Of a stretch of DNA of 64,000 bases, positions 19,796-61,289 are shown one piece after another; the stretch's first letter is position 1; each line of letters opens with the position of its first letter. The stretch lies in assembly GCF_963676685.1 (NCBI RefSeq), contig NC_092349.1, forward strand, positions 46,748,001-46,812,000. The letters are read 5' to 3'. Origin of the DNA: Mytilus edulis (taxonomy: Eukaryota). Made by a program: the position numbers and the translations under genes. Under the pieces are notes generated by a model that did no database searches, had not been told where the DNA came from, and worked only from the letters and a program-made list of their open reading frames with translations.

Positions 19796-19823
19796 ACTAA
19801 GATAGTCAACCTGTCTTTTTCAG

Positions 19824-34528: not shown

Positions 34529-34727
34529 TACTGTGGATTCATTATAATTCGATAGGTACAAATATTCGTGAAATTCGTGGGTATAGTAGAACCAAGAATT
34601 TTCATGGTTCAATGAACAATATATTTTTCAAATTAACTTGTATACAGAATTTGTCAAAACCTCGAAAATGGAACTATTCCTCAATCAGTGAAAATTGATA
34701 CACACGAAAATAAATGAATACATAGTA
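34529..34727. mobile_element. TA-flanked MITE (family of 15566-15779)
   Basis: TACTGTGGATTCATTA ... AAATGAATACATAGTA. Confidence 0.65.
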
Positions 34728-34776
34728 CTAGAATTCACAAGCCTTCATTACAGGTATCTTACCAAGAATATACAGT

Positions 34777-36940
34777 CTATACAGTTCCCAATGTATCTAA
34801 CAAAAGATTTTGGATTTCTGTATGATCATTTTCAACAGCCATCATCAAAGGAGACTGTCCTTCAACATCACATTTATTGCAATTTGCTCCTCTGTGTAAC
34901 AACATTTTTACTATATCTATTCTGCCGTTTTCACAAGCATACAATAAAAGTGACTCGCCAAACACGTAACATGTATTTATATCTTCCCCTTTGTCTAACA
35001 ACATCTTGACTATTTTTGTATGACCTTGTGTACATGCCATCATTACAGGTGACCGACTCAACCAATTAACACATTTATATGTTGCTCCTCTGTTTAATAA
35101 CATATTTACGATTTCGGTATGACCATTTTCACATGCCTTCATTAAAGATGTATTCCACATGATGTCATATGTATTTACGTCTGTTCCTCTGTCTAACAAA
35201 ATCTTTACTATTTCTGTATGACCATGTTAACATGCCTTCATTACAGCTGACTGCCCCCTGACGTCACATTGATTAAATTCTGCTCCTTTGTCTAACAACA
35301 ACTTCAGTATTTCTATATGACCATGTTCACACGCCTTCATGACAGATGACTGTCCCTGATTATCACAGTGATTAAAATCAGCTCCACTATCTAACAATAA
35401 CTTGACTATTTCTGTATGACCATTTTCGCATGCAGTTAAAACAGGTGATTGTCCGCTATATGTACAATACCTGTTAACATTAACACCATGATTACAACAC
35501 CACTTGACAAAAAAATAATCTCCTATAGAACAACAATGTAATAAAGCAGTAGGGTAGTAATCCTCATCCTCATGATCCTTTCTCTCCTTATGAATGCTAT
35601 CATCATCAGAATCATCAGAACTAAAGCAATCCATGTACCATAGGTCACATTCTGCAAGTCCAACACTAAAATCGTGAAACTCTTGTTTATCATTACATCT
35701 TTGGATAAAATCTTTATCAAAACTATGCGCCAGTTGTTTTTGGTAAGATACATCAAGCGTATTCAAATGTGACAGAAATGTCTCTCTGAAATTTGGAAAC
35801 TTCATATTGATGTTGCTGAATACATCTTGGACTTTTCCTTTTGACCAGTCATCTGACATTCTCTGTATGTAGATCTGATGATATTTTTGTGGTATAACAG
35901 TAATAAACTGCTCCATGTCATCCTTTCTTTCTAATACAAATCTTTCTTTGATCACACCACTGTCTGCGTTTAGGATCAGGCAATGTATTATTTTCTTTGC
36001 AAAGTAGTAAACCAAAAAGTCAAATATTTTACCATGGATCGTCTTGTAAACGTTTTTTTCTTCTTTATAAATGTATGTGTTAGTGAATCAAGTTCATCCA
36101 GAAGAATAGTTTTTGAAGTTCCTCTATTTAATTTACACGCCTCACAAATGTGTTCGATTATAGTTCTGGTTTCTTCATTCACCTTTTCCATCAGCATTTC
36201 TTCATTAACATTGTTGTTGAAGAAGACACATAACGCTAAAGCACAGTATTTGCCGTGATACCCTTTCTTGAGTAGCTTGTCAATTTCTGTTTCGTAAACT
36301 GAAAATGGATTCTGGAAGAAATCTGTAACTTCAAGTTCAGGATTATCATGATATAGTTTACATAAAAGTGGAAAACAATCATATAAATCATAGTATTGAC
36401 TGATATCAGATGTTTTTTCTTTGAGGTACAACTTAGCAATTGCTTGCTTTTCAGTTTCAGACAAACAAATGTCCTTAGATAAAATGTTACATACACATGA
36501 CTTGAATAGTGATAAACATTCAAACTTTTCATCATTGTAAATCTGTAACCGACATGCTACAATTATTTTTGCGAGTTTACTTTCAAGAACCATTTTCAAA
36601 TGATCAATAATTGGTTCCCAAATATTAATTTCACCCTGGTTAAAAGAATAATTTCCACATAAATCATCAACAATAAACATTGCTTTTTTACTCATGTTAT
36701 TTGGGTTATAAAATTTTAAAATGTCATCTGGAAATGTCACAGGAAGAATATCGTATTTGTTTTCTGCCATTTGTAAAGCCACGTGTCGGAGTGTTGCTGT
36801 CTTTCCGACACCAGAACTAGCAGTAATAGTTACACAACTATTTTCTTGAATACATTTGAGAACCTGTTGAGCAGCTCTTGTTTCTATAAACATCTTATCA
36901 TCAGTGTCTTTCCAGGCTTTAAGTGTTTCTTTGATTTTTG
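34777..36940 (-). pseudogene. Coding exon 4 of the HEPN-STAND-ankyrin gene: STAND (nSTAND3-like) NTPase plus ankyrin repeats, disrupted
   Basis: Acceptor tttcag (AG at 36941-36942), phase 1. Walker A ASSGVGKT (36798-36821), Walker B MFIVDD, IIVACR; about 8 ankyrin repeats (GQSPVLTACENGHTEIVKLLLDSGAD). Frameshift at the T7 run 36053-36059; in-frame TAA at 35227-35229 where sister repeats have Glu (KAC*HGH). Confidence 0.85.
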
Positions 36941-37719
36941 CTGAAATGTTAATTCAGTGTCAATTAAGCATCTAGTGACATGCATGTAGTACATAGTAAC
37001 TATAAAAGGCCATATTTGTACGATAATTTCATTAAAACCGTTCAATTGAAACTTGAATTACAAATTAATTAGTTATCATTATAATGATTTCACTGTACTT
37101 TTTTATTTATTGTACATGAATCTTTTTGTTGGAATAAAGGAAATCGTTAGGATCTCTTACTTTCATTTATGTTGACTCGGTCTTTTCTGAGTAATTTAAA
37201 CTTTACCTTAAAAGTTCTTACAGACAAATGAAAAGGAATTTTCCTTTAATTGTATGTGTTGAGCTATCAAGACCGTATGCAATAAAAAAAACACCTCCAA
37301 GTTTATAAAGACAGACAGAGGTAATCATGTAAAGGACAGATTGCTAAAACGGGTAAAAGAAAAATATCAAAAATACCGAACTCAAAGGAAAATTCAAAAC
37401 GGAAAGTCCATTATCGAATCAGATGTTCAACCACATCAAACGGATGGAAAACAACTGTCCTTTTAATGACTTGGAACAGGCATTTCCATATTTAGAACAT
37501 TGTGGATATAACACGCTTTTATATCGAGCTAAACCTATCAGTTGTATGACTGTCGCATTAAATTCCATTGAACTGAAAACAATGTGTTAAAAAAATGTCA
37601 AAAATAGTAGTACATAGTTTAACATTGTGTTTTTATCTTAATCACTATAAAAACAAACAAATATGTCAACAAAGAAAATCAAAGTGGCATTAAACCAAAG
37701 AAAATAAGCAAAAATACAA

Positions 37720-38525
37720 ACTAGAGACTCCAAAGAGCCTGAGTCGGTCACAATATATTTTTATTTACAAATGATGCATGAAATAATACAACCGTAATAC
37801 TTTTGCTTTAGTTTCAGAGATACAAGTCAAAAACTGCCATTCTTAGCCATGTTTGCCATGCTGGTTGGCAGGCAGGGTCATCGGACACACTTTTAAAACT
37901 AAATACCCTAATGCTTATTTGTGCACAAATGTGGTTGAATTTGTCTCAGTTGTTTCAGGAGAAAACTTTGGAAAAGATTACAAAAATGTACGATAAATGA
38001 TAAATTTGACTTTAAATATAACTCCTTGTTGGGTCAATTGACCATTTTGCCCATGTTGACTTATTTGTATACCTTACTTTGCTGAACATTATTGCTGTTT
38101 ACAAATTATCTCTTTCTATAATTATATTCAAAATAATAACCAAAAGCAACAAAATTTACTTAACCTTACTAATACAGGGACAGCAACCCCACAATGGATT
38201 GTCCGATTCGCCTGAAAATTTCAGGACATATAGATCTTGACCTGATTAACAATTTTACACTGTCAGATTTGCTCTAAAGAGATATAAACCAAAATCTAAA
38301 TTTTACTACTTTGTTCTGTCTTAGCCATGGTGGCCATCTTGGCCATCTTGATTGGTTGGGTGATTGGGCATATTTTTCAAATAGAGACCCAAATGATGAT
38401 TGCGGCCAAGTTTAGTTTAATATGGCCCAGATTTCAGAGAAGAAGATTTTTTTTTAAAAGTTTACGACGGACGCCAAGTGATGAGAAAAGCTCACTTGGC
38501 CCTTTGGGCGATGTGAGCTAACAAA
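37720..38525 (+). mobile_element. Non-autonomous element with a 3' stem-loop (Helentron/HINE-like), nested in another dispersed repeat
   Basis: Ends in hairpin AGCTCAC...GTGAGCT plus an A-rich run. It interrupts a repeat whose halves (about 37370-37720 and 38525-38786) resemble 15380-16040. Confidence 0.5.
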
Positions 38526-38781
38526 CGAACATTGTACAATAACATCATGGCAGAATGTATAAGTAACGAAGCAGGTCGAAAAGATATTATCAAAAATGGA
38601 CTAAACAGTAAAGGTTAATAGTTAACAAAGACAAATAAAAGACCACAATTAGACGTTATTAAGATTATAGATAACGTCAATAGATAGAATCTATACTTAA
38701 AAACCATCATGTATTTTTTGATGAAATTGATACGGAATATTAATCAACTTTCTCTTGGTATCTTCAGATAAACTCTTTTAG

Positions 38782-39141
38782 AAATGAATATGGGTTGTGA
38801 CATTACACGAGAAGTAAAGGAAAAACATTTTATTTCAAAATTTAAATCACGATTGAATGCAAACTATGCATTTTCTATTGTGTAATAATGACGCTCCATA
38901 CTTCTATATATAGACTAAGTGTAATACGATTTATCTCCCTTTATATACTCAACGACAACTATGACGTTACATACCTACCGTTACATAGTTACGTTAATCA
39001 TGTATAGTTTCACCTGAAGATTGTTATTTAAACATGAAAGTACTAGTGAATTAAAACTATTCATACCGGAAATGTTGAATTTTTAGTAATCTATATATAT
39101 TTCTATACACAAGAACATTTATTATAGTGATCTTTATATAT
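38782..39141 (+). repeat. 5' pseudo-LTR (partial tandem copy of the element's 3' end)
   Basis: Identical to 42560-42919 except A38923/C42701; includes the last codons of the endonuclease. Confidence 0.93.
39009..39050 (+). ncRNA. Type I hammerhead ribozyme in the 5' pLTR
   Basis: TTCAC CTGAAGA T-TGTT-ATTTA-AACA-T GAAA GTAC TA GTGAA; palindromic stem III AGTACT. Confidence 0.8.
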
Positions 39142-39160
39142 TTATTGTGTGTGTGCCAAC

Positions 39161-40408
39161 ATGGCCGGAGGAGCTACAAAGAAGACTAACGAAACAGAAA
39201 GACTTCTTGGGGAGATACTTAATAAGCTAAGTATATCAGTTACAAAGATAGACTTCCATACTTCAATTCTTAAAGATATGGAAAAAAACTCATCTGATTT
39301 ACGACCAATACAAGAGGCGTTAAATTCAGAAATAAGAAACTTGTCCGATACAATTGCCGTTATACCTCAAACAACTAGGCAAATTCCCGTAGATGAACTA
39401 CTTTCTACCCCAGAATGGATAAGTAATCTAAATGATGCTAATTTAGAAAAAGAAGCATTCCGTAAAAGAAAGGAAATCTCAAAATTATGGAGCAGAAATT
39501 TAAACGACCGAAAACAAAATTTCTGGAATGCTTACAAATGCGAAAAATACGCAGAGGTTTATTCACGATGGATAACCATGGATTCACCCATTTTTCCAAG
39601 AAAATTTCTGATTAAAGAAATTGAAGCCGAACCAATCGAAGACACGAAACTTCGTTGGGATTTGGCAATTCAACAATTTCAAACAGAAATTTCAATTATC
39701 TTAAATAAACAAACTCGCTACACTGAGAAATACAACGCAATTGATGCTGAAATGGTGGCAGGAATACAAAAGATATCAACGGAAAGAATAGCTGAAAAGC
39801 TTAAGGAAATTTGGACACGTGATATTTTCAAAGAAGAGGAAAAATCCCGTAATTTATGGCATAAGAAGCAAGAATTCTTAGAAAATTACATAAAAAATTA
39901 CGGTAAAGAGCAGTCTTTTGAAGATAATCGTAAACCAAATAAATACAAGAAACGGCAACAACGATCAAAACTTCAAACTGGTCAAAATACCAGAAGACAA
40001 CCAAGTGGACAAAAGAAGATAACCAATCGCAGACGCTCAAGTTCGACAGCCAGAAAAAATACTGCGACAAACATTTCAAGAAGGCAAAGTCGGTCAGTGT
40101 CGACAAAAGGAGAACGAAAATCATATGCGGAAGTTGTTCGCAATGCTTCGTCTCAAAAACGTCGGACAGCGAATCCGCAGTCAGCTGGTAGAGGAAACTA
40201 CCAACAAAATCGCCGTTCAAGAAATAAATCAGTGAACCGATCCCGTATCAATAAGAATAACGTTCAAAACAACCGGCAAAATTATGTAAATTATGTAAAA
40301 ACTAATCAGCGCCAGAATCAAGAAAAACGTATTCATTTTTTAGTGTCGGGCCAAATAACTCCCGAGAGGGAGAAAAATCCAGAAGAAACCAGTCTAAAAC
40401 ATGCCTAA
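39161..40408 (+). CDS. Penelope ORF1: helical/coiled-coil N-terminus and very basic R/K/N/S-rich C-terminus, 415 aa
   Basis: ATG in CAACATGG context 20 nt after the pLTR; uninterrupted ORF. Confidence 0.8.
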   Translation: MAGGATKKTNETERLLGEILNKLSISVTKIDFHTSILKDMEKNSSDLRPIQEALNSEIRNLSDTIAVIPQTTRQIPVDELLSTPEWISNLNDANLEKEAFRKRKEISKLWSRNLNDRKQNFWNAYKCEKYAEVYSRWITMDSPIFPRKFLIKEIEAEPIEDTKLRWDLAIQQFQTEISIILNKQTRYTEKYNAIDAEMVAGIQKISTERIAEKLKEIWTRDIFKEEEKSRNLWHKKQEFLENYIKNYGKEQSFEDNRKPNKYKKRQQRSKLQTGQNTRRQPSGQKKITNRRRSSSTARKNTATNISRRQSRSVSTKGERKSYAEVVRNASSQKRRTANPQSAGRGNYQQNRRSRNKSVNRSRINKNNVQNNRQNYVNYVKTNQRQNQEKRIHFLVSGQITPEREKNPEETSLKHA

Positions 40409-42663
40409 AAGTCGATCCAAAAATTATAAATTTGTCCAACAGAGTATTTAATGACAATGAACTGAAATTGCTTAAAAGGGGTTTAAAATTTACACCAACT
40501 CCCTCTGTGGATCATGATGAACTTAAAGCAGACATGTTGAAATTTTGTCGAAGATTGAGACTCACTGAATATTTCGCGGATAAAGAAAGTGAGGAGGACG
40601 ACTCGTTAGTAAGAAACAAATCTACCTTTATTCCAAATACCGGAAGAAACAAGTGTTTAGATGACTATATCGAAAATTTGTCCAACTACCCACTTACACC
40701 AATTAAAGTCAACCACAACTTAACTAAAGGCGAAAAGTCAGCACTCCAAAATCTAAGAAACGATAAAAGCATAGTAATTAAGCAGGCCGATAAAGGTGGG
40801 GCAATAGTAATAATGGATTCAGACTACTATAGAATTAAAGTTGAAGAACAACTCAATGATTCGACATTTTACTCAGAAATTCCTGATAATATAGATCATC
40901 TAGTCAAGAGAAGAATGAATACCGTACTGAACAAATACACAACGGCCACTACGGAAAAAGAGTATGATTACTTGAAAAATTTCGAAAGGAAAACGAGTAA
41001 CTTTTATGGCCTTCCAAAAATCCATAAATCAAAGGAGATCCAATCGGCTATTAATTCTCAGCAAAACGAATACATAAAAGTGCAAAAACCGACGGATCTT
41101 AAACTTAGACCCATCATTGCAGGTCCAGCAAGTCCCACTCACAGACTAAGCAACTTTTTAGACATAATTTTGAAACCATTGTGTAAATATGTACCGAGCT
41201 ATATAAGAGACGATATAGATTTTCTCTCACACCTGCCAAAAATAGCACCGGTTCACGCTCGTTTAGTAAGCTTCGATGTCACAAGCCTATATACGAACAT
41301 TCCACACGATTTAGGAATAGAGGCAATACAATATTGGGTTGCAAAACATCGAGATGCAATACCAAATCGATTCACTGTTGACTTTATATACTCGATTCTA
41401 CTAAACTAATTCTTGAAAACAATTCTTTCTATTTCAATGGCAAGAACTATTTGCAACATCGGGGGACAGCAATGGGAACAAAATTTGCACCAACCTATGC
41501 AACATTAGTCATGGGCTTCCTTGAACAAAGACTGTATCAAGAAGTTGAAAATAATTTTGGAGTTGAATTTGCAAGAGAATTCGAATTATCATGGAAAAGA
41601 TACCTTGATGATTGCTTCATTATCTGGAACAAATCCGACGAAGAACTCCAACTATTTTCGGACATACTAAATAACCTTCATACCTCCATAAAATTTACGA
41701 AGGATGAAAATTTTAACCAATTACCGTTTCTAGACATTCTTGTTATTAAAGATGGCACTGAAATTAAAACCGATATTTTTTACAAAGGTACTGATACTCA
41801 TCAGTATTTAGATTTTAATTCGTGCCACCCATCTCATACCAAAAGGAATATCCCCTATTGTTTAGCAAGAAAAATATGTACAGTAGTCGAGGATGAACAT
41901 TTGAGAGAAGACCGTCTAGAGGAACTACAATCATTTTTGATCAAGCAAAACTATCCAGAGACTTTAATAGAAAGGGGAATTCAAATGGCAAAACAGATCC
42001 CAACCAACCAACTACGCTCCACCTGCGAGGAGCAGAGTAATAACAACGATAAAATACCGTTCGTTATTACACATAATCCCCGGAACTTTAAAATTATTCC
42101 CGTTGCAAAGGCAAATTTACCTATTCTTGATCAGGATGAAAAGATGCGCCGTTTAATTAATACAGAAACACTTCTACAAAGTAAACGGCAACCACAAAAC
42201 CTTAAACGACTATTGACCCGAGCACGATTCGACCAACAAAGAACATTCAGTGTGTCAAAATGTCGAGATAGTCGTTGTGGAGCATGTCCGTATATCCATG
42301 TCGGCAAGGGAATGGACATACCTAATTGGTCTATCACTTTTTACCAACGAAGACATTACCTGTAAATCCGAGAACTTAATTTATTGCATTAAATGTAATG
42401 GTTGCCAGGAAATTTATATCGGCCAAACAGGGAACAGTGTAACAGAAAGAGTGCGCATTCATAGACAACATATAAGGCAGCCACAATACAGAAAAATCCC
42501 CCTAAGCAAACATTTAGACGAATGTGGAGGGGGATTTTTTAAAATATTTCCATTTTATAAAATGAATATGGGTTGTGACATTACACGAGAAGTAAAGGAA
42601 AAACATTTTATTTCAAAATTTAAATCACGATTGAATGCAAACTATGCATTTTCTATTGTGTAA
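40336..42663 (+). CDS. Penelope RT + GIY-YIG endonuclease (starts in the -1 frame relative to ORF1; two internal indels)
   Basis: The frame is open across the ORF1 overlap (...FSVGPNNSREGEKS...PKIINLSN). Removing 2 nt at 41385-41390 and 1 nt at 42308-42310 joins the three ORF-track pieces into one RT-EN frame. Confidence 0.9.
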
Positions 42664-42919
42664 TAATGACGCTCCATACTTCTATATATAGACTAAGTGT
42701 CATACGATTTATCTCCCTTTATATACTCAACGACAACTATGACGTTACATACCTACCGTTACATAGTTACGTTAATCATGTATAGTTTCACCTGAAGATT
42801 GTTATTTAAACATGAAAGTACTAGTGAATTAAAACTATTCATACCGGAAATGTTGAATTTTTAGTAATCTATATATATTTCTATACACAAGAACATTTAT
42901 TATAGTGATCTTTATATAT
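42560..42919 (+). repeat. 3' pseudo-LTR followed by (TA)n
   Basis: Direct repeat of 38782-39141 at offset 3778. Confidence 0.93.
42787..42828 (+). ncRNA. Type I hammerhead ribozyme in the 3' pLTR
   Basis: Identical to 39009-39050. Confidence 0.8.
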
Positions 42920-43629
42920 ATATATATATATATATATCTATTACAAAATTAAAGAGTATTAAACAGATTGTGACAAATCATAATACGACGATCTATGCCG
43001 CGTGTTAAAACAACCTTATTGTTCATAACATTACTATTTCGTGAAAAAGTAAATTTACGACAAATGACCAAATAAATGAGTTAGATATAAATATTAATAC
43101 ACGAGTTCTGATTCCTTGACTGTTGAACTTTGATCTTTAGAATTTACACAACTTACCATTGTTAAAAATTCCACATATTAAACTTACATCCCTTCGTTAC
43201 CGTTTATCTACATATTTGTGACCAGATCTAAAATGACTTTTGCATACGATAAATAAAACAAATCTTCCTATACACACTTTTCCAATGTCATTGCATTACT
43301 TGTAGCTGTTTATCGCTTCCATTAATATTACAAATTTAAAAAAAAATTCGCATGGATGATAATTTGTCTCACAATATATCTATCTGACCTTCTGTGTTTA
43401 TCTAACATTATAAGGTATTATGAAACTATCTTTCCTTGACAAAATATTGTCCTGACATCCCTGTGTTAACCAGTTATATGTATTAAGTGTACAGACCATT
43501 GTTGACCTCTTACATTAGTAAGTACCCACCTGGTAAAGCAGAGACATGTTTCTAGACAAGCCTTCCTAATGATAATAAAATCAAAGTAAGTTTCATAATA
43601 ACAGTCTTAGTACTTTAACTACAAATTAC

Positions 43630-43861
43630 CTCTAACATTCGGTGGTATTGGATCCTGTTGAGATGCTTTTATTATTTTCATTTCTCTTCTCATAATAGTA
43701 TGTGAGCGTTTCATTCTTTTAAATGATTTTTTTATATCCTTGATTTCATCATTAGAACGTTTGATGCCCCTTATTATTTCTTGGTTGGTTTGATCTAGGA
43801 ATTTAGTTTTCAGCTGATCACATTCCTGCTTCATTGGCTGCCCACCTATTCTTTCAATGGC
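43630..43861 (-). CDS. Coding exon 3 of the HEPN-STAND-ankyrin gene (end of HEPN region plus coiled coil)
   Basis: Acceptor ttaacag, phase 0; AIERIGGQPMKQECDQLKTKFLDQTN...PIPPNVR; phase-1 donor G|GTAAT; 232 nt. Confidence 0.8.
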
Positions 43862-44139
43862 CTGTTAAATACACAGAGAATAATGGCATTTTGTCTTTGA
43901 TATAACATATGAATCTAATCATCAAGTTCATAGTTAAGTGACGTCATTGCATAATATTTAAGTAGCATGTCTGTGTGAATGATCGACCAAAGTCCGTTTT
44001 CAAAGACAAAGAGGCTGTGAAATGTCTATCATATCTTCACATTAAGCATGGTGTTGTTCCTGGGGAAAAAAGCTTCAAATAACATTGTTTTGTGAGTAAA
44101 TCGCACTACTACAAGTATCTTAGTTGTAAACGAATTAGG

Positions 44140-44945
44140 AATAGATGAGCACTCAGATAATCCCACATATATAAATGATGAGATTTTTGAGAATCATAAG
44201 TCCGTCATGGCATCAATGAACATTAAATTGAACAACAAATCGGAGGACTCACATTGTTTGTAATGGATAATTAAGCTTTACGAAATTCAATTACGGTACA
44301 TTGTTGTCACATCTACATGTTCAACTAAAAAAATGTCCTTTAGATTGACTACAATTTTGTCTGCAGTGAAAGAGGGTCTTCATAAATATTGTGAAACTGT
44401 TTACTTGTGTAGTGGTATTAACCATATGTGGATTAAAATATATACTTTAAAGAACTTCTGGATAATTTTCCTTAAATGAAAAAAATCTTTTTCAATCCGG
44501 TATACCAGCATTCCACATTTTAAATTGAAAAGTCTTTTAAATAAAAAGTCCACAATGCTTATCAACATACAAATGGTAGCATACACTTTAAATTTATCAA
44601 CTTTGGATATCACACGGCATATTTTATTAATAGTGAATAAAAAGTTGAAACATGATACACAGAGGAACAAGTAATCAGTATGCTGGAGTTCATTATTGAC
44701 AATATATGTGTTGATAGTACCAAAAAGAGAAACAATAATCACGGCTTCTCCTGCCTCATTTTGATCCCTTATACCTTGAATTTGACATACGCAGTCATCT
44801 CAGAGTACAAGAAACTATGACAAACGAGACGATTGCAATTTTGAAATTATCAATGTCCACACCCTAGTAGCCATATACCGACTTATCCTGTTTATGGGAT
44901 ATATATTTCCATACTAATTCAGTATTAAAGAGCTGGCAGCTTTGT
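44140..44945 (+). mobile_element. Highly degenerate Penelope-like RT fragment
   Basis: Reads STCSTKKMSFRLTTILSAVKEGLHKYCETVY..SGINHMWI and later EFIIDNIC; resembles 31720-32320. Confidence 0.55.
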
Positions 44946-45957
44946 AAAAATGTCTGAGCATCAAGTGGATGTTTTTAGTAAGTTTTGCCATTACGTGTGT
45001 CTTTATTTCGTTAAGATTTTTATGAATTGATATTTTGCAAGTTAATATGTCCATATTTTGTCATATTTTATTAACTTCGAATTTTCATAATTTACATTGG
45101 ACATTGGTATCAGTGTTCATAGTTTTCACAAGTTACAATACAATATAAAAAAAATGGTTTCCTTGCTATTTCTTTAAAACAAAAGGAAAACAACAAAATA
45201 CCGAACCCCAAGGCAATCTTAAACAAAAAGTCTCCACCAAACGGAACAATCAACAACTAAGAAGTACATGATAATTTGTGCTGTCAAATAAAGAAACACA
45301 AATAATAATTAAAAAAAATCATTTGGTTTAAATTGTGTTACTTTTTCATCCAGTAAACAAAAATGAAAGTTATAAATTCAAAAGTCATAGGATGGCAATA
45401 ACAACAATAGGGTAAATTTTGAAAACTAAGGCAATGGACTCAAGCGAATATTACGTATTTTTCTCGTTTACAAAATACTTATCAGTGACAATCGAAGCAA
45501 AACGTTAAAAATGCCAAATAAAGTACGAAACTGATAAGCAGTGAGAACCCATCATTTAAAAGAAAAATCGGTTCAAATCAAGCATAATTGATGAGTCTCA
45601 TGCAGACGAAACTCGTTGCTCGCTGACCAATCCATAACCCTAGTATCATAGATGAATTTTCTGCTTGTTTATATGTTGAGATTTTTTCATGAGGAAAGAC
45701 GATTTACTAGTTCAAACGGTGTTATGTCCTTAATTAACTTCCAAAATATGTCTTAATATGTATCATATGTAAATATCAACAGAAAATATTATTGAAAACA
45801 GTCACTTTATTTTCACAAATTAAAAACGTGTAGGAAATATCATTATTATGTGTTTAAAGCACATTAAACCAATAATATTAATATTTTTTGAATTACAGTG
45901 CCAAATGATGTTAACTTGGTGATTTAACATCAGCTGAAGGAAACTTAATAAACTTAC

Positions 45958-46187
45958 TCCAGTTATATCAGTCCAGGCTGTGTTGAAGAAAGTATCGTCT
46001 AGTTTACCATTATCCGTATGGGACAAATAATTCCTGTAGTGTTTTATTCTTGCTAAATCTGCTGATTGTGTTGTCTCTGCTGCATTAGGTAAACTGTCAA
46101 AGCCATAAACGGGAGGGTTCATTGAAGTCAAGTTCCTCAATAATGTTATCATCAGTGTCACATCAAAAGTTTTAGAATCTGGAACAT
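45958..46187 (-). CDS. Coding exon 2: DZIP3-type HEPN domain with RxxxxH motif
   Basis: Acceptor ttactag, phase 1; DVPDSKTFDVTLMITLLRNL...ADLARIKHYRNYLSH; donor GGA|GTAAG; 230 nt. Confidence 0.87.
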
Positions 46188-46886
46188 CTAGTAAATACAT
46201 CAGATAAAATTATAAGCGATACAAAGATAGGACAAAAGTTTATTCATCTCCATTGAAACGAATGATAAATAGGTGAATCATCTAATGAATTATATGTTAA
46301 TTTAAGACAACAGTAGTTTACCTTTGTTCAAATTCATTGATAAAATCTGGTACATGCCTTAACAGAGATTGAAAAAAATATGACTTGAACTTGCTTTTCA
46401 AATGTTGATTATGTTACACCACGGTTGGTAAGTGATGAGGAAAGCATATGTAACTTATATTTTCTTTTATCCTTGGTCTTTGATTGATAAACGTCTCATA
46501 AGCAGTAATGCCACATGTTGCCAGTTTCTTAGTGTATTTCTTGCATAAATATTCAAGTATAGCTAGTATAATTAAAGACTTTTGAAGATTCTTAAAAGAT
46601 TTTAGCAAAAAGTGGAAATTAAACAAATACAAAAAAACCAAACAAAAGCCTTACAAATAGAAAATTCCGAAGGCTTGCGATACCATTGGAATGGAAATGT
46701 TCAAATCAGAGACGAATTAAGCCATGACTAATATACGCAATCAATATATTTTTAAATTCATTTTTGTAAATGGGTTCATCTATATACAGAGAGTGATAAG
46801 ATATATATTTCAAAATTGATATGTCTAGCTTGTGACAGGGATTTTTTCGGAATCTGAGGCAAGAGATTGTTAAATTTGAAACTCAC

Positions 46887-47103
46887 CAGGACGTCTTGGA
46901 AACAGGAGGTTCCACTGTGAGTGGTTGATTCGCCGTTTCTTTTGCATGTCACGCAGTTTGTTATACTCTTTATTCAGTGAGACATCTAAACTTGCTGGAG
47001 CAAATTCATTATCAAAACACTTCCTCACTGCACGTGGAGCAATTCCAGTTAGTAACAAACTCATTCGAACGTAATATTCTTCATCTTGAGAAATGGATTC
47101 CAT
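46887..47103 (-). CDS. Coding exon 1 of the HEPN-STAND-ankyrin gene
   Basis: MESISQDEEYYVRMSLLLTGIAPRAVR...QWNLLFP; donor G|GTGAG; upstream acceptor ttttttcag at 47247-47248. Confidence 0.85.
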
Positions 47104-47453: not shown

Positions 47454-50400
47454 CTTCGGACGCAAGAAATTAATAACGTGTTGTTTTCAATATTTTACAT
47501 CACTGGGTCGATACCTCTGCTGGTGGACTATCAGTCCCCGAGGGTATCATCAGCTCGGTAGTCAGTATTTCGGTACTGACATGATTTAACAAACTTTACT
47601 AAAATTGTCCGTTTATAAATTTATAAATTATTAAGAAACTAAGGTTTCAACTCCCTCAGGCAAAGTTGGCTTTAGATTAATTTGGCTAATTATTTTAGGT
47701 ATTTTTTGACATTCAGCTCTTCAACGGTTTCGGTACTTATACATCTTCGGATTTCAAATGTTTGGCTTTGAGCGTTCCTGATGAAGGTAAATCCAGAAAA
47801 GCGCTTCGGACGCAAGAAATTAATAACGTGTTGTTTTCAATATTTTACATCACTGGGTCGATACCTCTGCTGGTGGACTATCAGTCCCCGAGGGTATCAT
47901 CAGCTCGGTAGTCAGTATTTCGGTACTGACATGATTTAACAAACTTTACTAAAATTGTCCGTTTATAAATTTATAAATTATTAAGAAACTAAGGTTTCAA
48001 CTCCCTCAGGCAAAGTTGGCTTTAGATTAATTTGGCTAATTATTTTAGGTATTTTTTGACATTCAGCTCTTCAACGGTTTCGGTACTTATACATCTTCGG
48101 ATTTCAAATGTTTGGCTTTGAGCGTTCCTGATGAAGGTAAATCCAGAAAAGCGCTTCGGACGCAAGAAATTAATAACGTGTTGTTTTCAATATTTTACAT
48201 CACTGGGTCGATACCTCTGCTGGTGGACTATCAGTCCCCGAGGGTATCATCAGCTCGGTAGTCAGTATTTCGGTACTGACATGATTTAACAAACTTTACT
48301 AAAATTGTCCGTTTATAAATTTATAAATTATTAAGAAACTAAGGTTTCAACTCCCTCAGGCAAAGTTGGCTTTAGATTAATTTGGCTAATTATTTTAGGT
48401 ATTTTTTGACATTCAGCTCTTCAACGGTTTCGGTACTTATACATCTTCGGATTTCAAATGTTTGGCTTTGAGCGTTCCTGATGAAGGTAAATCCAGAAAA
48501 GCGCTTCGGACGCAAGAAATTAATAACGTGTTGTTTTCAATATTTTACATCACTGGGTCGATACCTCTGCTGGTGGACTATCAGTCCCCGAGGGTATCAT
48601 CAGCTCGGTAGTCAGTATTTCGGTACTGACATGATTTAACAAACTTTACTAAAATTGTCCGTTTATAAATTTATAAATTATTAAGAAACTAAGGTTTCAA
48701 CTCCCTCAGGCAAAGTTGGCTTTAGATTAATTTGGCTAATTATTTTAGGTATTTTTTGACATTCAGCTCTTCAACGGTTTCGGTACTTATACATCTTCGG
48801 ATTTCAAATGTTTGGCTTTGAGCGTTCCTGATGAAGGTAAATCCAGAAAAGCGCTTCGGACGCAAGAAATTAATAACGTGTTGTTTTCAATATTTTACAT
48901 CACTGGGTCGATACCTCTGCTGGTGGACTATCAGTCCCCGAGGGTATCATCAGCTCGGTAGTCAGTATTTCGGTACTGACATGATTTAACAAACTTTACT
49001 AAAATTGTCCGTTTATAAATTTATAAATTATTAAGAAACTAAGGTTTCAACTCCCTCAGGCAAAGTTGGCTTTAGATTAATTTGGCTAATTATTTTAGGT
49101 ATTTTTTGACATTCAGCTCTTCAACGGTTTCGGTACTTATACATCTTCGGATTTCAAATGTTTGGCTTTGAGCGTTCCTGATGAAGGTAAATCCAGCAAA
49201 AGCGCTTCGGACGCAAGAAATTAATAACGTGTTGTTTTCGGACGCAAGAAATTAATAACGTGTTGTTTTCAATATTTTACATCACTGGGTCGATACCTCT
49301 GCTGGTGGACTATCAGTCCCCGAGGGTATCATCAGCTCGGTAGTCAGTATTTCGGTACTGACATGATTTAACAAACTTTACTAAAATTGTCCGTTTATAA
49401 ATTTATAAATTATTAAGAAACTAAGGTTTCAACTCCCTCAGGCAAAGTTGGCTTTAGATTAATTTGGCTAATTATTTTAGGTATTTTTTGACATTCAGCT
49501 CTTCAACGGTTTCGGTACTTATACATCTTCGGATTTCAAATGTTTGGCTTTGAGCGTTCCTGATGAAGGTAAATCCAGCAAAAGCGCTTCGGACGCAAGA
49601 AATTAATAACGTGTTGTTTTCAATATTTTACATCACTGGGTCGATACCTCTGCTGGTGGACTATCAGTCCCCGAGGGTATCATCAGCTCGGTAGTCAGTA
49701 TTTCGGTACTGACATGATTTAACAAACTTTACTAAAATTGTCCGTTTATAAATTTATAAATTATTAAGAAACTAAGGTTTCAACTCCCTCAGGCAAAGTT
49801 GGCTTTAGATTAATTTGGCTAATTATTTTAGGTATTTTTTGACATTCAGCTCTTCAACGGTTTCGGTACTTATACATCTTCGGATTTCAAATGTTTGGCT
49901 TTGAGCGTTCCTGATGAAGGTAAATCCAGAAAAGCGCTTCGGACGCAAGAAATTAATAACGTGTTGTTTTCAATATTTTACATCACTGGGTCGATACCTC
50001 TGCTGGTGGACTATCAGTCCCCGAGGGTATCATCAGCTCGGTAGTCAGTATTTCGGTACTGACATGATTTAACAAACTTTACTAAAATTGTCCGTTTATA
50101 AATTTATAAATTATTAAGAAACTAAGGTTTCAACTCCCTCAGGCAAAGTTGGCTTTAGATTAATTTGGCTAATTATTTTAGGTATTTTTTGACATTCAGC
50201 TCTTCAACGGTTTCGGTACTTATACATCTTCGGATTTCAAATGTTTGGCTTTGAGCGTTCCTGATGAAGGTAAATCCAGAAAAGCGCTTCGGACGCAAGA
50301 AATTAATAACGTGTTGTTTTCAATATTTTACATCACTGGGTCGATACCTCTGCTGGTGGACTATCAGTCCCCGAGGGTATCATCAGCTCGGTAGTCAGTA

Positions 50401-53400
50401 TTTCGGTACTGACATGATTTAACAAACTTTACTAAAATTGTCCGTTTATAAATTTATAAATTATTAAGAAACTAAGGTTTCAACTCCCTCAGGCAAAGTT
50501 GGCTTTAGATTAATTTGGCTAATTATTTTAGGTATTTTTTGACATTCAGCTCTTCAACGGTTTCGGTACTTATACATCTTCTCGGATTTCAAATGTTTGG
50601 CTTTGAGCGTTCCTGATGAAGGTAAATCCAGAAAAGCGCTTCGGACGCAAGAAATTAATAACGTGTTGTTTTCAATATTTTACATCACTGGGTCGATACC
50701 TCTGCTGGTGGACTATCAGTCCCCGAGGGTATCATCAGCTCGGTAGTCAGTATTTCGGTACTGACATGATTTAACAAACTTTACTAAAATTGTCCGTTTA
50801 TAAATTTATAAATTATTAAGAAACTAAGGTTTCAACTCCCTCAGGCAAAGTTGGCTTTAGATTAATTTGGCTAATTATTTTAGGTATTTTTTGACATTCA
50901 GCTCTTCAACGGTTTCGGTACTTATACATCTTCGGATTTCAAATGTTTGGCTTTGAGCGTTCCTGATGAAGGTAAATCCAGAAAAGCGCTTCGGACGCAA
51001 GAAATTAATAACGTGTTGTTTTCAATATTTTACATCACTGGGTCGATACCTCTGCTGGTGGACTATCAGTCCCCGAGGGTATCATCAGCTCGGTAGTCAG
51101 TATTTCGGTACTGACATGATTTAACAAACTTTACTAAAATTGTCCGTTTATAAATTTATAAATTATTAAGAAACTAAGGTTTCAACTCCCTCAGGCAAAG
51201 TTGGCTTTAGATTAATTTGGCTAATTATTTTAGGTATTTTTTGACATTCAGCTCTTCAACGGTTTCGGTACTTATACATCTTCGGATTTCAAATGTTTGG
51301 CTTTGAGCGTTCCTGATGAAGGTAAATCCAGAAAAGCGCTTCGGACGCAAGAAATTAATAACGTGTTGTTTTCAATATTTTACATCACTGGGTCGATACC
51401 TCTGCTGGTGGACTATCAGTCCCCGAGGGTATCATCAGCTCGGTAGTCAGTATTTCGGTACTGACATGATTTAACAAACTTTACTAAAATTGTCCGTTTA
51501 TAAATTTATAAATTATTAAGAAACTAAGGTTTCAACTCCCTCAGGCAAAGTTGGCTTTAGATTAATTTGGCTAATTATTTTAGGTATTTTTTGACATTCA
51601 GCTCTTCAACGGTTTCGGTACTTATACATCTTCGGATTTCAAATGTTTGGCTTTGAGCGTTCCTGATGAAGGTAAATCCAGCAAAAGCGCTTCGGACGCA
51701 AGAAATTAATAACGTGTTGTTTTCAATATTTTACATCACTGGGTCGATACCTCTGCTGGTGGACTATCAGTCCCCGAGGGTATCATCAGCTCGGTAGTCA
51801 GTATTTCGGTACTGACATGATTTAACAAACTTTACTAAAATTGTCCGTTTATAAATTTATAAATTATTAAGAAACTAAGGTTTCAACTCCCTCAGGCAAA
51901 GTTGGCTTTAGATTAATTTGGCTAATTATTTTAGGTATTTTTTGACATTCAGCTCTTCAACGGTTTCGGTACTTATACATCTTCGGATTTCAAATGTTTG
52001 GCTTTGAGCGTTCCTGATGAAGGTAAATCCAGAAAAGCGCTTCGGACGCAAGAAATTAATAACGTGTTGTTTTCAATATTTTACATCACTGGGTCGATAC
52101 CTCTGCTGGTGGACTATCAGTCCCCGAGGGTATCATCAGCTCGGTAGTCAGTATTTCGGTGCTGACATGATTTAACAAACTTTACTAAAATTGTCCGTTT
52201 ATAAATTTATAAATTATTAAGAAACTAAGGTTTCAACTCCCTCAGGCAAAGTTGGCTTTAGATTAATTTGGCTAATTATTTTAGGTATTTTTTGACATTC
52301 AGCTCTTCAACGGTTTCGGTACTTATACATCTTCGGATTTCAAATGTTTGGCTTTGAGCGTTCCTGATGAAGGTAAATCCAGAAAAGCGCTTCGGACGCA
52401 AGAAATTAATAACGTGTTGTTTTCAATATTTTACATCACTGGGTCGATACCTCTGCTGGTGGACTATCAGTCCCCGAGGGTATCATCAGCTCGGTAGTCA
52501 GTATTTCGGTACTGACATGATTTAACAAACTTTACTAAAATTGTCCGTTTATAAATTTATAAATTATTAAGAAACTAAGGTTTCAACTCCCTCAGGCAAA
52601 GTTGGCTTTAGATTAATTTGGCTAATTATTTTAGGTATTTTTTGACATTCAGCTCTTCAACGGTTTCGGTACTTATACATCTTCGGATTTCAAATGTTTG
52701 GCTTTGAGCGTTCCTGATGAAGGTAAATCCAGAAAAGCGCTTCGGACGCAAGAAATTAATAACGTGTTGTTTTCAACATTTTACATCACTGGGTCGATAC
52801 CTCTGCTGGTGGACTATCAGTCCCCGAGGGTATCATCAGCTCGGTAGTCAGTATTTCGGTACTGACATGATTTAACAAACTTTACTAAAATTGTCCGTTT
52901 ATAAATTTATAAATTATTAAGAAACTAAGGTTTCAACTCCCTCAGGCAAAGTTGGCTTTAGATTAATTTGGCTAATTATTTTAGGTATTTTTTGACATTC
53001 AGCTCTTCAACGGTTTCGGTACTTATACATCTTCGGATTTCAAATGTTTGGCTTTGAGCGTTCCTGATGAAGGTAAATCCAGAAAAGCGCTTCGGACGCA
53101 AGAAATTAATAACGTGTTGTTTTCAATATTTTACATCACTGGGTCGATACCTCTGCTGGTGGACTATCAGTCCCCGAGGGTATCATCAGCTCGGTAGTCA
53201 GTATTTCGGTACTGACATGATTTAACAAACTTTACTAAAATTGTCCGTTTATAAATTTATAAATTATTAAGAAACTAAGGTTTCAACTCCCTCAGGCAAA
53301 GTTGGCTTTAGATTAATTTGGCTAATTATTTTAGGTATTTTTTGACATTCAGCTCTTCAACGGTTTCGGTACTTATACATCTTCGGATTTCAAATGTTTG

Positions 53401-53481
53401 GCTTTGAGCGTTCCTGATGAAGGTAAATCCAGAAAAGCGCTTCGGACGCAAGAAATTAATAACGTGTTGTTTTCAATATTT
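47454..53481 (+). repeat. Tandem array of 17 near-identical 350-bp units, each with a hammerhead motif (non-LTR retrozyme array)
   Basis: GGACGCAAG follows a full hammerhead motif at 47808, 48158, 48508, 48858, 49209, 49591, 49941, 50291, 50643, 50993, 51343, 51694, 52044, 52394, 52744, 53094 and 53444. Confidence 0.95.
47772..47813 (+). ncRNA. Type I hammerhead ribozyme (first of 17 in the array)
   Basis: Stem I GCGTTC/GGACGC; CTGATGA; weak stem II A-GG-TAAAT-CC-A; GAAA; palindromic stem III AAGCGCTT; predicted cleavage after C47807. Confidence 0.85.
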
Positions 53482-57740: not shown

Positions 57741-58888
57741 CTATCCGAATTTCACAAAAAAGATATATGTAATAATCGAAATAAATATAAGTACATATGA
57801 GAAAGTACAAAACAATATGTCTAAAACTTTTGCAACGTCTTTCCCATGAAACTTCTTACTTTCCAGTGGTCTGCCATTCTCCCAGTTGCAACATAAATTA
57901 AAAAAGATCTCAAAAGAAGAATTATGGTCAAAGGTCTCAACATAATGGCATCTTGCACTGAGTATAACTCCAATGATGATAAAGCCACTTATTGTAATAA
58001 TAGAGAATATCATACACAGCAGAAAACACATTGGACTTGATGATGTCGGTAGGACGTTCGCAACAATAGTAAGAAAAAATGCAAATGTTAGGAGTACCGT
58101 TATCGCAAGTCCCATTCTTTCGCCAGATTCTATTGGAAATGTGAATACTAACGGATTTAGTAAACATAGCAAAAGTATAGGTAAAATAATGATGACGATG
58201 AAGTATAGAGGTTTCCTCTGTATACATATATCTATGTTGTATGTATACACTCCGTTTTCTTCGACAATGTATGCTTTATGGTTCGCAAGATTCCAATGTG
58301 CATTTGGGGTAAAGAATTCCATCAAAAGTTCATCCGAATTAGATATGAGCTTGAAAGCAGATCCAGCACTCCACATAATGAATTTTAGTGTGCATGTTTG
58401 AACATCAAATGGGAATTTAGACATATCCGTAGGACAGTTTGATTTTATTATCGCTCCGGGTGCATCTGTCACACTTCCATTCGGACAAATCGATGCGAGA
58501 AAAGGGGCGTCTTTTCCAATTGGTTCAAAGTCGTCTACACTATTAAGAACATAAACCCATGGGATCCAAATGTCAGCAGAGGGGATACGTAGAATGTCCG
58601 TGTTTCCATAGTCCTTTGGATTCCACGTTAATGATGGGTCTGTCCAATTCATTCTCAAAGCGACTACTATTGTTAACACCTCGTTCACGTCATTAAAATC
58701 GTTTATCATTTTTAACCATAGTGATAGTCCTACTTCTAACGGTTTTGTACTGTTTTCGCGTGGAAATAGTTGTTTCTGGTATCCTGTAAGTAGTTTTTCA
58801 TAAAGTCTTTTTGAATCATCAAATGTTTCAGATCTGTGTTTATTTGTACGAACAGTGAAATAAACATTGTTAAATATAGAACATCCAT
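57741..58888 (-). CDS. Intronless Cys-loop ligand-gated ion channel subunit (nAChR-like, non-alpha); apparent frameshift after the signal peptide
   Basis: WTDPSLTW, IWIP, Cys-loop CPTDMSKFPFDVQTC, four TM helices, M2 entry SGER. The frame extends upstream of 58709 (SETFDDSKRLYEKLLTGY..FPREN). Signal peptide MDVLYLTMFISLFVQIN starts at 58888 in another frame and joins by removing 2 nt at 58835-58839. Confidence 0.9.
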
Positions 58889-61289
58889 TGCAATGAATAT
58901 ATTGTTCAGTTTATATGATAAGACTTGTATGATCTTGTATCACATTTACAATAAAGAGATTTGGTATGATTGTCAATGAGACAACTGTCTAACATCGTCC
59001 AAATGACCTCGACTAAAGCAACTCAAGGGTGGTTACTATGCTATAGTCTACTTTAACTGGAAAGTGAATGAACAACCTCGGGATAATGTTTTTCTACAGA
59101 TATCAGATAAGCAAATTACTTAAACATGTTCCTAGTCGATAATAAATATAATGTTGGCGTTGCAATGTTTGTTATTTTGAGTTTTTATGATTAGATCTAT
59201 AATGTAAAGAATAAAATAATTCGTTTTCTTTTTAAGGAAGATTTTTCAAATAAAATGCCAATAACATTATTAAATTTATGTATAGATTTAATTTTGTGTC
59301 TGATGAGATATTTGTCAGTAGATTTAAATAAATTAATATAACCAATTAAAACTAAACTTGATTAATCTACATTGATCTAAAAAGAAATTAAGAGTAAGAA
59401 GGCGCAGCGTATGTAGGTTAGGTTAGAACAAGATTAAAACTGACATTGTGGGAATGATTTATAGGACGATGTCTTTTAATATATTGCTTCATATAGCATC
59501 ATTGTCAATGACATTATTCTATGCAATTACTAAAGAAAGTATAGAAATACCGAAGTATACGTAGGTTTTATCCTTATTCGTGTATTGCAATCTTTTATAT
59601 TAAAAACAGAATTTATGCATAAATTTTACTTCTATAGAATAACAAGTCGTAGATGATGTTTATACATCGATGGACCTAAAAGGGATACTGATACTGATAG
59701 GTTTCATATTTAGTGTTTGATTCGAGAATATTTGTTTAAAGAAGATAAACAGCTCATATGTCGAATCAATAGTTATCAAAGGTACTAGGATTGAATTTTG
59801 TAAGCTAGTCGCGCGTTTCGTCTACATAAAACTCATCGGTGTATTTGCACAAAACCAATTGACAAGAATGTCTCTTTTTATTACTAGAAAACATGCAATT
59901 GTAAAAAAGCTACACACATTAATTTTGATTATGCTAAGTTTCAATGTCTTTTGAATTCACTATTGTCCAATTTAAGATGTTAAACGATGTAGACGATAAT
60001 ATACAGTGGTGATAAGCACTGTTTAAGACAATTCCTTTGTTGTAGAACATGCAAATATGGCGGTAATTTACCGTTGTTATGTATCAAGCAAGATTTGCTG
60101 ATCAATGTGATGTTCATTAAACCCATGAAGGACTTATATGATTCGCAAAAATTTCTTCCTTGTCGAATGATATATGTTTTTGTATGTGGGATTATAGGAG
60201 TGCTCATTAATTCCAAATGCATTTACAAATTACTCATAGTAGTACATTTACATACAAAACCGATATTTAAAGATTTGTCCGCAGGAACAACAGCATATTT
60301 ATCGTGCAGAGATAATACACTTCAAAGCTTCTTAATTTGTCTCTGAAAACGAACGTTGGTCGAGCATTCACACAGCTCATATCCAACTAAGTTAGACAAC
60401 ACGTGACTTTTGTGACGTATTCTGGCGGCCATTTTGTATTATATTTCCCCATATAAAATGCATAGATGCTTCAATAAAGTTTAATTTTCTCATAAAACTG
60501 ACCAGTTTTCTAAGTTTTGCAAATCAATCCTTGATATTCAAACATATTTCTATCAAACAATGTTGTTCCTAACAGTTTAAATTTTGATTAAAGTCCATCA
60601 TTTTAGACTTGTAAAAACATGCACTTTTCCCGTCATTTCTTCGTTGCCTCCATGCTAAATTACCGATACTCCTACTTGTACAACAAATAAAGAAATTCTG
60701 TACATTAAAAACAAATTTTGCAAATCGATTAAGTATATTAAAACATATATCTGGCGAAAAATACTACTTAAAACAGTTTAATTTCAAGTCAAAGTCGGTC
60801 AAATATCGATTTAAAAAATGGAATTTTTCGGGATTTTTCAAAATGGCGGATGATGAATATCCCATAATATGGAAATGTTGCATCAAATAAAGGATTTGTA
60901 TAGTAAGACTTTCCTAGATTATATTAATATTTTCATGCAGAATCTCTGATGTTTCTGTTCTTTTCTTTGGTAATATTTCAAAATGATTGATTTCAAAATT
61001 TCTTGATTAAAAAAAATACTTTAAGTGTGACACGGGAACATTTATTTGACAGATATCCAGGATATACTGTTACCAGAAAATAGTTTACAATAAAATTAAA
61101 ATAATTTTTTTCTCTTCTTTTTTTAAAGGTGTTTTTCTGTATATTTTACCTTTCTTTAGAAATATATTTATACATCCCTTTTAGAACAAAAAATGTTTTC
61201 ATCCCATGAGAAAAAAAACAATGCCCGAAAATTAATATAGATAAATATTCTATTCTATACCTTTAAAATTTCATTCCTTTACAGAACAG

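What the first reader, a model, noticed from the sequence alone, without database searches (positions are those of the whole stretch)
34777..47103. HEPN RNase - coiled coil - STAND NTPase - ankyrin gene: an NLR/Avs-like animal receptor with a nuclease effector
Seen: four exons with compatible phases (47103-46887, 46187-45958, 43861-43630, 36940-34777) join ORFs that the track lists separately. The HEPN RxxxxH motif is intact (RNYLSH, 46035-46018), Walker A and B are present, and an ankyrin array follows. Established: effector-STAND-repeat sensor is the architecture of NLRs and bacterial Avs proteins, and RxxxxH HEPN domains are dimerisation-activated RNases (Cas13; related KEN domains in RNase L and Ire1). 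Inference: ligand binding by the ankyrins drives oligomerisation and RNA cleavage, an invertebrate innate immune system that to my knowledge is functionally uncharacterised.
Basis: partly seen in the sequence, partly recalled or inferred. Interest (0 to 1): 0.82.

Follow-up and report, generated by a model that had tools for sequence, protein, structure and literature searches.

The report
Broken mussel RNase-armed immune receptor allele
This is one copy of a very large mussel gene family that joins a predicted RNA-cutting domain to a bacterial-type immune switch and a variable ankyrin sensor, likely an innate immune receptor; the copy in this window is broken by a frameshift and a stop codon, but a full-length version is on record in a sister mussel species.

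Summary
The four exons, splice sites, RNYLSH motif, Walker A/B and ankyrin array are real; Pfam calls HEPN_DZIP3, nSTAND3 and Ank. The spliced product stops at 543 aa, before the ankyrins. Both lesions recur in public DNA contigs, so they are not assembly errors. A 933-aa intact orthologue exists in Mytilus galloprovincialis (96% identical over 520 aa), as does a second frameshift allele. The family is large: at least 150 HEPN loci in this genome; 28 of 38 nearest NTPase copies run open into 2-34 ankyrins. HEPN and NTPase are under purifying selection (dN/dS about 0.2), R and H are kept in 140 of 141, and ankyrin binding-face positions vary. The NTPase folds as a STAND module of the Avs5-type nSTAND3 family, not NACHT. 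HEPN-NACHT receptors are described in corals and pearl oyster; I found no paper on this nSTAND3-ankyrin form. RNase activity, oligomerisation and ligand are untested. Verdict: new variant of a known kind; this copy is likely a null allele.

The parts
46887..47103 (-). Coding exon 1 (ATG at 47103; first part of the HEPN domain), phase-1 GT donor
   Evidence: (HEPN_DZIP3 profile 1-34)
45958..46187 (-). Coding exon 2, core of the DZIP3-type HEPN domain
   Evidence: (E 5e-23)
46018..46035 (-). RNYLSH, the Rx4H HEPN motif, intact
43630..43861 (-). Coding exon 3: end of HEPN and long helical (likely coiled-coil) linker
   Evidence: helix 173-232 in the homologue model
38781..42923 (+). Penelope-like retroelement in intron 3, antisense to the gene: RT and GIY-YIG in shifted frames, 365-nt identical direct repeats at 38781-39145 and 42559-42923
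36420..36890 (-). nSTAND3 NTPase domain (Walker A 36821-36798, Walker B 36680-36663) in exon 4
36053..36059 (-). A-run in the winged-helix wing; this haplotype is 1 nt short of frame, and the shifted frame stops at 35990-35988
35557..36052 (-). End of winged helix, helical domain 2 and acidic loop (out of frame in this haplotype)
34780..35556 (-). Ankyrin array: a capping repeat plus seven 99-nt repeats (out of frame in this haplotype)
35227..35229 (-). In-frame TAA inside the ankyrin array; the intact orthologue has Glu here
34777..34779 (-). TAG ending the full-length frame; the intact orthologue has the same C-terminus

Best explanation
The locus belongs to a large Mytilus family of HEPN - helical linker - nSTAND3 - ankyrin genes that likely act as intracellular immune receptors with a built-in RNase, and the haplotype in this window carries a frameshift and a stop that remove the sensor, so it is likely a null allele. 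Inferred mechanism for intact copies: the ankyrin array folds back on the NTPase and holds it off. A foreign or altered-self protein binds the variable concave face of the ankyrins. Nucleotide exchange lets the STAND modules oligomerise, the long helices bring HEPN domains together in pairs, two Rx4H motifs form one active site, and RNA is cut, stopping translation or killing the cell. Copies are gained, reshuffled and lost continually (birth and death), and the A-run in the winged-helix wing is a mutational hot spot.
For: Shown: domains. Splice sites are conserved in paralogues. An intact 933-aa orthologue P0200 has all motifs. The lesions are in DNA contigs: the TAA in X1 and X2 (0 differences over 35192-35556) and the frameshift in X2; X1 has an in-frame form and X4 a different out-of-frame form. 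Of the 38 nearest NTPase copies with a Walker A frame, 10 break before any ankyrin and 28 run into 2-34 repeats. Four other copies break at the same wing site (P0001, P0129, L007/P0127 frameshifts; L003 stop). R and H are kept in 140 of 141 aligned HEPN domains and in 28 of 30 genome paralogues. Walker A lysine is kept in 119 of 120 and Walker B aspartate in 119 of 120. Median dN/dS between paralogues: HEPN 0.21, NBD 0.23, HD1-WHD 0.17, first ankyrins 0.51. Repeat positions 1, 2, 4, 9, 12, 13 are the most variable. The predicted NBD-HD1-WHD aligns over 255-272 residues to archaeal STAND ATPases (Z 13.4, 12.8), plant NLRs (Z 12.6, 12.3), CED-4 (12.1) and Avs5 (9jap, Z 11.7). Nearest Atlas models outside molluscs are bacterial nSTAND3 proteins, some with Mrr nucleases (TM 0.77). 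From papers: Avs5 is effector-nSTAND3-repeat, needs its Walker motifs and senses a phage protein (bioRxiv 2025.07.08.663546); HEPN RNases need Rx4-6H dimerisation (PMC8266594).
Against: No activity, ligand or oligomer is shown. Many structural HEPN residues are as invariant as R and H, so conservation does not prove catalysis. No solved HEPN structure was matched; the NTPase filled the fold lists. AAA+ ATPases score within 1-2 Z of the STAND hits. Variable ankyrin positions give dN/dS only 1.1-1.4 on non-independent pairs, which is not a test of positive selection. The near-neutral N:S among alleles at this locus (19:5 and 13:4 against about 4.2:1 sites) rests on a truncated variant list and short divergence. 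The stop lies in the last exon and the 543-aa form is annotated as coding, so a product may be made. RNA evidence is thin: contigs only guessed to be RNA.
Confidence: 0.6

Rival explanations
1. Same receptor logic, but the HEPN domain is a non-cutting RNA-binding or dimerisation module that signals to another effector.
For: Some HEPN domains are proposed to be non-catalytic RNA binders (PMC3710099, passages). No DZIP3-type HEPN activity turned up. Structural residues are as conserved as R and H.
Against: The non-catalytic cases in that paper lack the motif. Here R-N-x-x-x-H is kept in 140 of 141 domains down to about 45-50% identity.
Confidence: 0.15
2. The family senses self/non-self between mussels (allorecognition, transmissible tumour cells) or mobile-element products rather than microbes, as some fungal NLRs do.
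For: Many repeats within one gene are nearly identical at silent sites (1219 within-gene pairs with pS under 0.1), like the high-internal-conservation repeats of fungal NLRs (PMC13449251, section 12). Null alleles segregate.
Against: No ligand data either way. That paper reports such repeats in NLR-like proteins of all domains of life.
Confidence: 0.12
3. The 543-aa sensor-less product is made and has a role (helper subunit, inhibitor or constitutively active form), so the frameshift is a functional switch.
For: The stop is in the last exon. 41 of 142 HEPN + Walker A database proteins lack ankyrin motifs, several ending at 520-570 aa. Breaks recur at one site.
Against: The break cuts through the winged-helix wing. 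The same haplotype has a second, redundant stop downstream. Alleles shift by -1 and +1 with different tails, as expected from slippage in an A-run. Other paralogues break at scattered places.
Confidence: 0.1
4. The gene is intact and the two breaks are assembly errors.
For: The frameshift lies in a homopolymer, and the best DNA holder (X1) shows an in-frame form there.
Against: The X2 contig spans the site with the same frameshift. The TAA is in X1 and X2 contigs with no differences. X4 and P0184 carry another out-of-frame form. X1 and X2 may be the individual that was assembled, but their contigs are separate from the assembly.
Confidence: 0.03

Closest known systems
HEPN(DZIP3)-NACHT NLR-like proteins of pearl oyster and corals (PMC9646362, PMC8260672)
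   Same: N-terminal DZIP3/hRUL138-like HEPN with Rx4H on a STAND NTPase with C-terminal repeats; large, copy-number-variable expansions; proposed RNase-based immunity, untested
   Different: The NTPase here is nSTAND3 (E 6.5e-26), not NACHT (E 0.07, below cut-off). The sensor is ankyrin, where those passages name LRR, TPR or WD40.
Bacterial Avs5 (Sir2-nSTAND3-TPR/Sel1/PPR) and other bacterial nSTAND3 proteins with Mrr nucleases
   Same: Same Pfam NTPase family and tripartite layout with an enzymatic N-terminal effector; fold match to Avs5 structures 9jap and 9nc9 (Z 11.7, 11.6); Atlas TM 0.77 to a bacterial nSTAND3 cluster
   Different: Animal, intron-containing, HEPN instead of Sir2/Mrr, ankyrin instead of TPR. 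No PADLOC AVAST model hit; the best NTPase hit was PDC-S73 at E 2e-12.
DZIP3/hRUL138 HEPN family (PMC3710099, table 1)
   Same: Same domain family; the table lists fusions to ankyrin and NACHT ATPase and an expansion in oyster
   Different: Lists domains, not this architecture; nSTAND3 is not named in the passages seen
RNase L (ankyrin-pseudokinase-KEN); description recalled, not from a call
   Same: Ankyrin sensor controlling a dimerisation-activated HEPN-superfamily RNase in an animal
   Different: Opposite domain order, kinase instead of STAND switch, 2-5A ligand, single conserved gene; only the ankyrins match
Fungal NACHT/NB-ARC-ankyrin NLRs with high internal repeat conservation (PMC13449251)
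   Same: Effector-STAND-repeat layout with reshuffled, internally similar repeats
   Different: Different NTPase families and effectors; HEPN does not occur in that paper's text

Membership tests
DZIP3/hRUL138-like HEPN (PF18738) | Profile match above the curated cut-off | tested here: met
   81.9 bits on exon 2 alone; 136.6 bits on the 543-aa product; cut-off 27
DZIP3/hRUL138-like HEPN (PF18738) | Rx4-6H motif conserved | tested here: met
   RNYLSH in the window; 77 of 78, 140 of 141, 28 of 30 genome paralogues
HEPN RNases | Fold match to a solved HEPN structure | tested here: inconclusive
   All-alpha domain at pLDDT about 90, but the fold lists were filled by ankyrin or NTPase hits; Atlas TM 0.93 is model against model
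HEPN RNases | Dimer-dependent RNA cleavage | not testable with these tools
   Needs an assay
STAND NTPases | P-loop NBD followed by helical domain and winged helix | tested here: met
   Homologue model aligns over about 260 residues to 2qen, 2fna, plant NLRs, CED-4 and Avs5; Foldseek top hits are NLRP3, ORC/Cdc6 and Roq1. In this haplotype the winged helix is cut.
STAND NTPases | Intact Walker A and Walker B | tested here: met
nSTAND3 (PF20720) | Profile match above cut-off and better than other NTPase families | tested here: met
   91.3 bits against cut-off 27.2; NACHT 13.3 bits
Canonical animal NLR (NACHT-LRR) | NACHT domain | tested here: not met
   13.3 bits against cut-off 26.7
Canonical animal NLR (NACHT-LRR) | C-terminal leucine-rich repeats | tested here: not met
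   Ankyrin repeats instead
AVAST type 5 (Avs5) | N-terminal Sir2 NADase | tested here: not met
   HEPN instead; no AVAST model in the PADLOC scan
Effector-STAND-repeat receptor (NLR-like, broad sense) | All three parts in one open frame | tested here: not met
   Not met in this haplotype (543 aa); met in orthologue P0200 and in 101 of 183 database homologues
Effector-STAND-repeat receptor (NLR-like, broad sense) | Ligand-triggered oligomerisation | not testable with these tools
   No ligand known

The most novel reading that the evidence does not exclude
Mussels run a repertoire of probably hundreds of Avs5-clade (nSTAND3) receptors, each wired directly to a HEPN RNase and fitted with a reshuffling, DARPin-like ankyrin sensor: an animal counterpart of bacterial Avs defence, separate from the NACHT-based NLRs, with working and null alleles segregating at single loci.
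Probability: 0.45. Interest if true: 0.8.

Novelty: new variant of a known kind. Interest (0 to 1): 0.5.

Why it matters
Surveys of mollusc NLRs count NACHT domains; the pearl oyster paper gives 5-20 for most molluscs (PMC9646362). An nSTAND3-based family would be missed by such counts, so mussels may have far more intracellular receptors than recorded. If the HEPN domain cuts RNA on activation, it is an animal STAND receptor with its own enzymatic effector, as in bacteria, and one that can be tested in simple cells. The segregating intact and broken alleles offer a natural knockout. This particular copy is a poor reagent; P0200 and the open paralogues are the ones to study.

Tried and rejected
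1) Auto-active allele silenced by null mutations. The window has IHG where most homologues have IHD at a position that resembles the MHD motif of NLRs (label recalled). Gly occurs there in 4 of 120 database homologues and in the intact orthologue, so this was dropped as unsupported. 2) Programmed frameshifting at the A-run: not needed, since in-frame alleles exist and a second stop follows. 3) Expression: no RNA holder was listed. One raw RNA run, 6% read, laid a single partial read on exon 4. No intron-skipping joint was among the rows shown (36 rows hidden); the exon 3-4 junction is not shown by RNA. 4) Sequence searches of the PDB with the NTPase piece gave 0 hits and with the 543-aa product only noise. 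Full-length searches returned only ankyrins. 6) dN/dS binned by dS is biased and was discarded; only the adjacent-repeat figure is quoted. 7) Searches of this scan's earlier notes gave nothing for this genome or sequence. 8) PMC7773633 and PMC10514466 held no relevant passage.
Full report
Observation. The four exons lie at the stated coordinates on the minus strand with AG acceptors, GT donors and compatible phases. Pfam gives HEPN_DZIP3 on exons 1 and 2 (E 1.4e-4 and 5e-23), nSTAND3 on exon 4 (E 6.5e-26, 91 bits; NACHT 13 bits) and ankyrin families. RNYLSH, ASSGVGKT and MFIVDD are present. Exon 4 is not one open frame. It is 2164 nt long and falls into three ORFs. Intact homologues align with a frame change near 36050-36090, and a TAA sits at 35229-35227 inside the ankyrin array. 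The spliced frame ends after 543 residues.

Gene model. Full-length Mytilus homologues map exon by exon with the same junctions. In the 30 best exon-2 paralogues of this genome the acceptor is AG in 30 of 30 and the donor GT in 30 of 30; the exon-4 acceptor is AG in 35 of 37. A database model, P0201, named uncharacterized protein of Mytilus edulis, is identical to the 543-aa product; it may come from this same assembly. RNA support is weak. Among contigs only guessed to be RNA, one covers exon 3 almost exactly (43632-43854) and one stops at the exon-2 donor with 53 letters left over, but no intron-skipping joint was among the rows shown.

Are the breaks real? DNA contigs of runs X1 and X2 span the TAA with no differences. 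At the A-run, X2 has the window's form, X1 an in-frame form (+1), and X4, under another species label, a +2 form that is still out of frame, plus a further 1-nt loss at 34900. X1 and X2 share many two-allele sites and may be one heterozygous animal, possibly the assembled one. Guessed-RNA contigs in X15 and X16 that span the site are one letter longer than the window, consistent with the in-frame form. The 90% cluster of this locus has 7 members. P0200 (M. galloprovincialis, 933 aa) is full length: 22 differences in the first 520 aa, Glu opposite the TAA, the same C-terminus. P0184 ends in the other shifted frame at the same A-run. So intact, -1 and +1 forms of one locus exist in Mytilus. Differences listed between the window and these runs are mostly nonsynonymous (19:5 and 13:4, against about 4.2:1 sites; 6 rows were hidden), which fits relaxed selection but is weak evidence. 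P0200 and the window diverge most in helical domain 2, the acidic loop, the cap and the first ankyrin (62-83% identity per block, against 94-100% in repeats 2-5).

Family. All named homologues listed are Mytilus. Of 183 proteins then held, 101 have HEPN, Walker A and at least two ankyrin motifs, and 41 have HEPN and Walker A without. In this genome PF18738 gave 651 candidates, 150 scored, all over the cut-off; PF20720 gave 604 candidates, 21 scored, all over the cut-off. I fetched 39 stretches covering the 40 other matches. With the window, 38 of 40 had a Walker A frame; 10 of these break before any ankyrin and 28 run open into 2-34 repeats, 7 of them past the fetched edge. Their link to a HEPN exon was not traced copy by copy. 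The wing A-run is hit again in P0001, P0129, L007/P0127 and L003.

Selection and motifs. R and H are kept in 77 of 78, 140 of 141 and 28 of 30 genome paralogues; several structural residues are equally fixed. Walker A lysine 119 of 120, Walker B aspartate 119 of 120. Median pairwise dN/dS among 25 open paralogues: NBD 0.23, HD1-WHD 0.17, HD2 0.23, first ankyrins 0.51; HEPN exon 2 among 30 loci 0.21. In 321 repeats from 25 genes the most variable positions are 1, 2, 4, 9, 12 and 13. Five of these match positions randomised in DARPin libraries (recalled, not from a call). Their dN/dS is 1.1-1.4 against 0.6 for the framework, on non-independent adjacent pairs.

Structure. AlphaFold models of homologues P0007 (pLDDT 85) and P0124 (87) show an all-helical N-terminal domain, a long helix, a five-stranded NBD, a helical domain, a winged helix whose wing is where the frameshift falls, a second helical domain and ankyrins. 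The NTPase module aligns over 255-272 residues to archaeal STAND ATPases (Z 13.4, rmsd 4.4; Z 12.8, 4.0), plant NLRs (12.6, 12.3), CED-4 (12.1) and Avs5 (11.7, rmsd 4.5, 264 aligned); AAA+ proteins score close but mostly over about 200 residues. Atlas neighbours by structure are molluscan and bacterial nSTAND3 clusters, some with Mrr nucleases (TM 0.77 over 380 residues). This is no evidence of gene transfer. The HEPN fold was not matched to a solved structure.

Mechanism. Shown: architecture, conserved catalytic-type and switch motifs, purifying selection, variable sensor, frequent breakage. From papers: Avs5 is Sir2-nSTAND3-repeats, needs Walker A/B and is triggered by a phage protein (bioRxiv 2025.07.08.663546, passages); Avs5 is activated by filament formation (PMC11897194, title and start of abstract only; PDB titles); HEPN RNases need two Rx4-6H motifs brought together (PMC8266594, passages). 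Inferred: ankyrin binding releases the NTPase, oligomerisation pairs the HEPN domains, RNA is cut. The window's allele cannot make the sensor or a whole winged helix and is likely null.

What is known. PMC3710099 (passages and section 16) lists DZIP3-type HEPN fused to ankyrin and NACHT, expanded in oyster, and proposes RNA-degrading defence. PMC9646362 (passages) reports over 50 HEPN-NACHT genes in pearl oyster with Rx4-6H in 194 of 202 HEPN proteins. PMC8260672 (passages) reports 17-83 HEPN-NACHT proteins in anthozoans. PMC8195603 and bioRxiv 2022.07.19.500537 (passages) mention HEPN with STAND in oysters and bacteria. PMC13449251 (passages and section 12) covers repeat-shuffling NLRs. Ten searches listed no paper on HEPN-nSTAND3-ankyrin genes in mussels and no activity test of a DZIP3-type HEPN; nSTAND3 occurs in 5 papers. 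The library lacks most subscription papers, and I did not read the supplements of PMC3710099 or PMC9646362, which list architectures and could hold this one.

Verdict. A real and under-described family, a new variant of a known kind. The copy flagged here is broken. Interest 0.5.

Noticed in passing
window 38781-42923 (+): Young Penelope-like retroelement (RT + GIY-YIG, frames shifted in this copy, 365-nt identical direct repeats) in intron 3; 13 places including this one are 99-100% identical over 901 nt in the genome. Presence or absence in other animals was not resolved.
   Followed up: partly
window 47454-53481: 350-bp tandem satellite, 17 copies, 98% alike, starting 350 nt upstream of the ATG.
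   Followed up: no
window 3775-6066 (-): Single-ORF LRR + TIR protein, Toll-like receptor type.
   Followed up: no
window 10752-13293 (+): Mutator-like transposase ORF followed by an exonuclease ORF with a PML_C hit.
   Followed up: no
window 57741-58910 (-): Ligand-gated ion channel subunit (Neur_chan_LBD and membrane part) in one ORF.
   Followed up: no
window 17211-17744 and 19595-20137 (+): Methyltransf_FA ORF and a PAN-domain ORF.
   Followed up: no
window about 37600-38520: Very high-copy repeat in intron 3, abundant in guessed-RNA contigs.
   Followed up: no
window 34700-35820: In X1 and X2 only one haplotype lays here at 92% or more while two lay on parts of the NTPase; with the block of divergence against P0200 this suggests strongly divergent alleles around helical domain 2 and the first ankyrins.
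   Followed up: partly
L005 (G000:C3:6502800-6507800): Paralogue whose single open frame appears to hold most of the NTPase module twice before 14 ankyrins.
   Followed up: no
G000:C3 about 4.9-7.0 Mb: Dense cluster of the nearest paralogues (14 of 41 matches), whereas the window's copy stands alone on C6.
   Followed up: no
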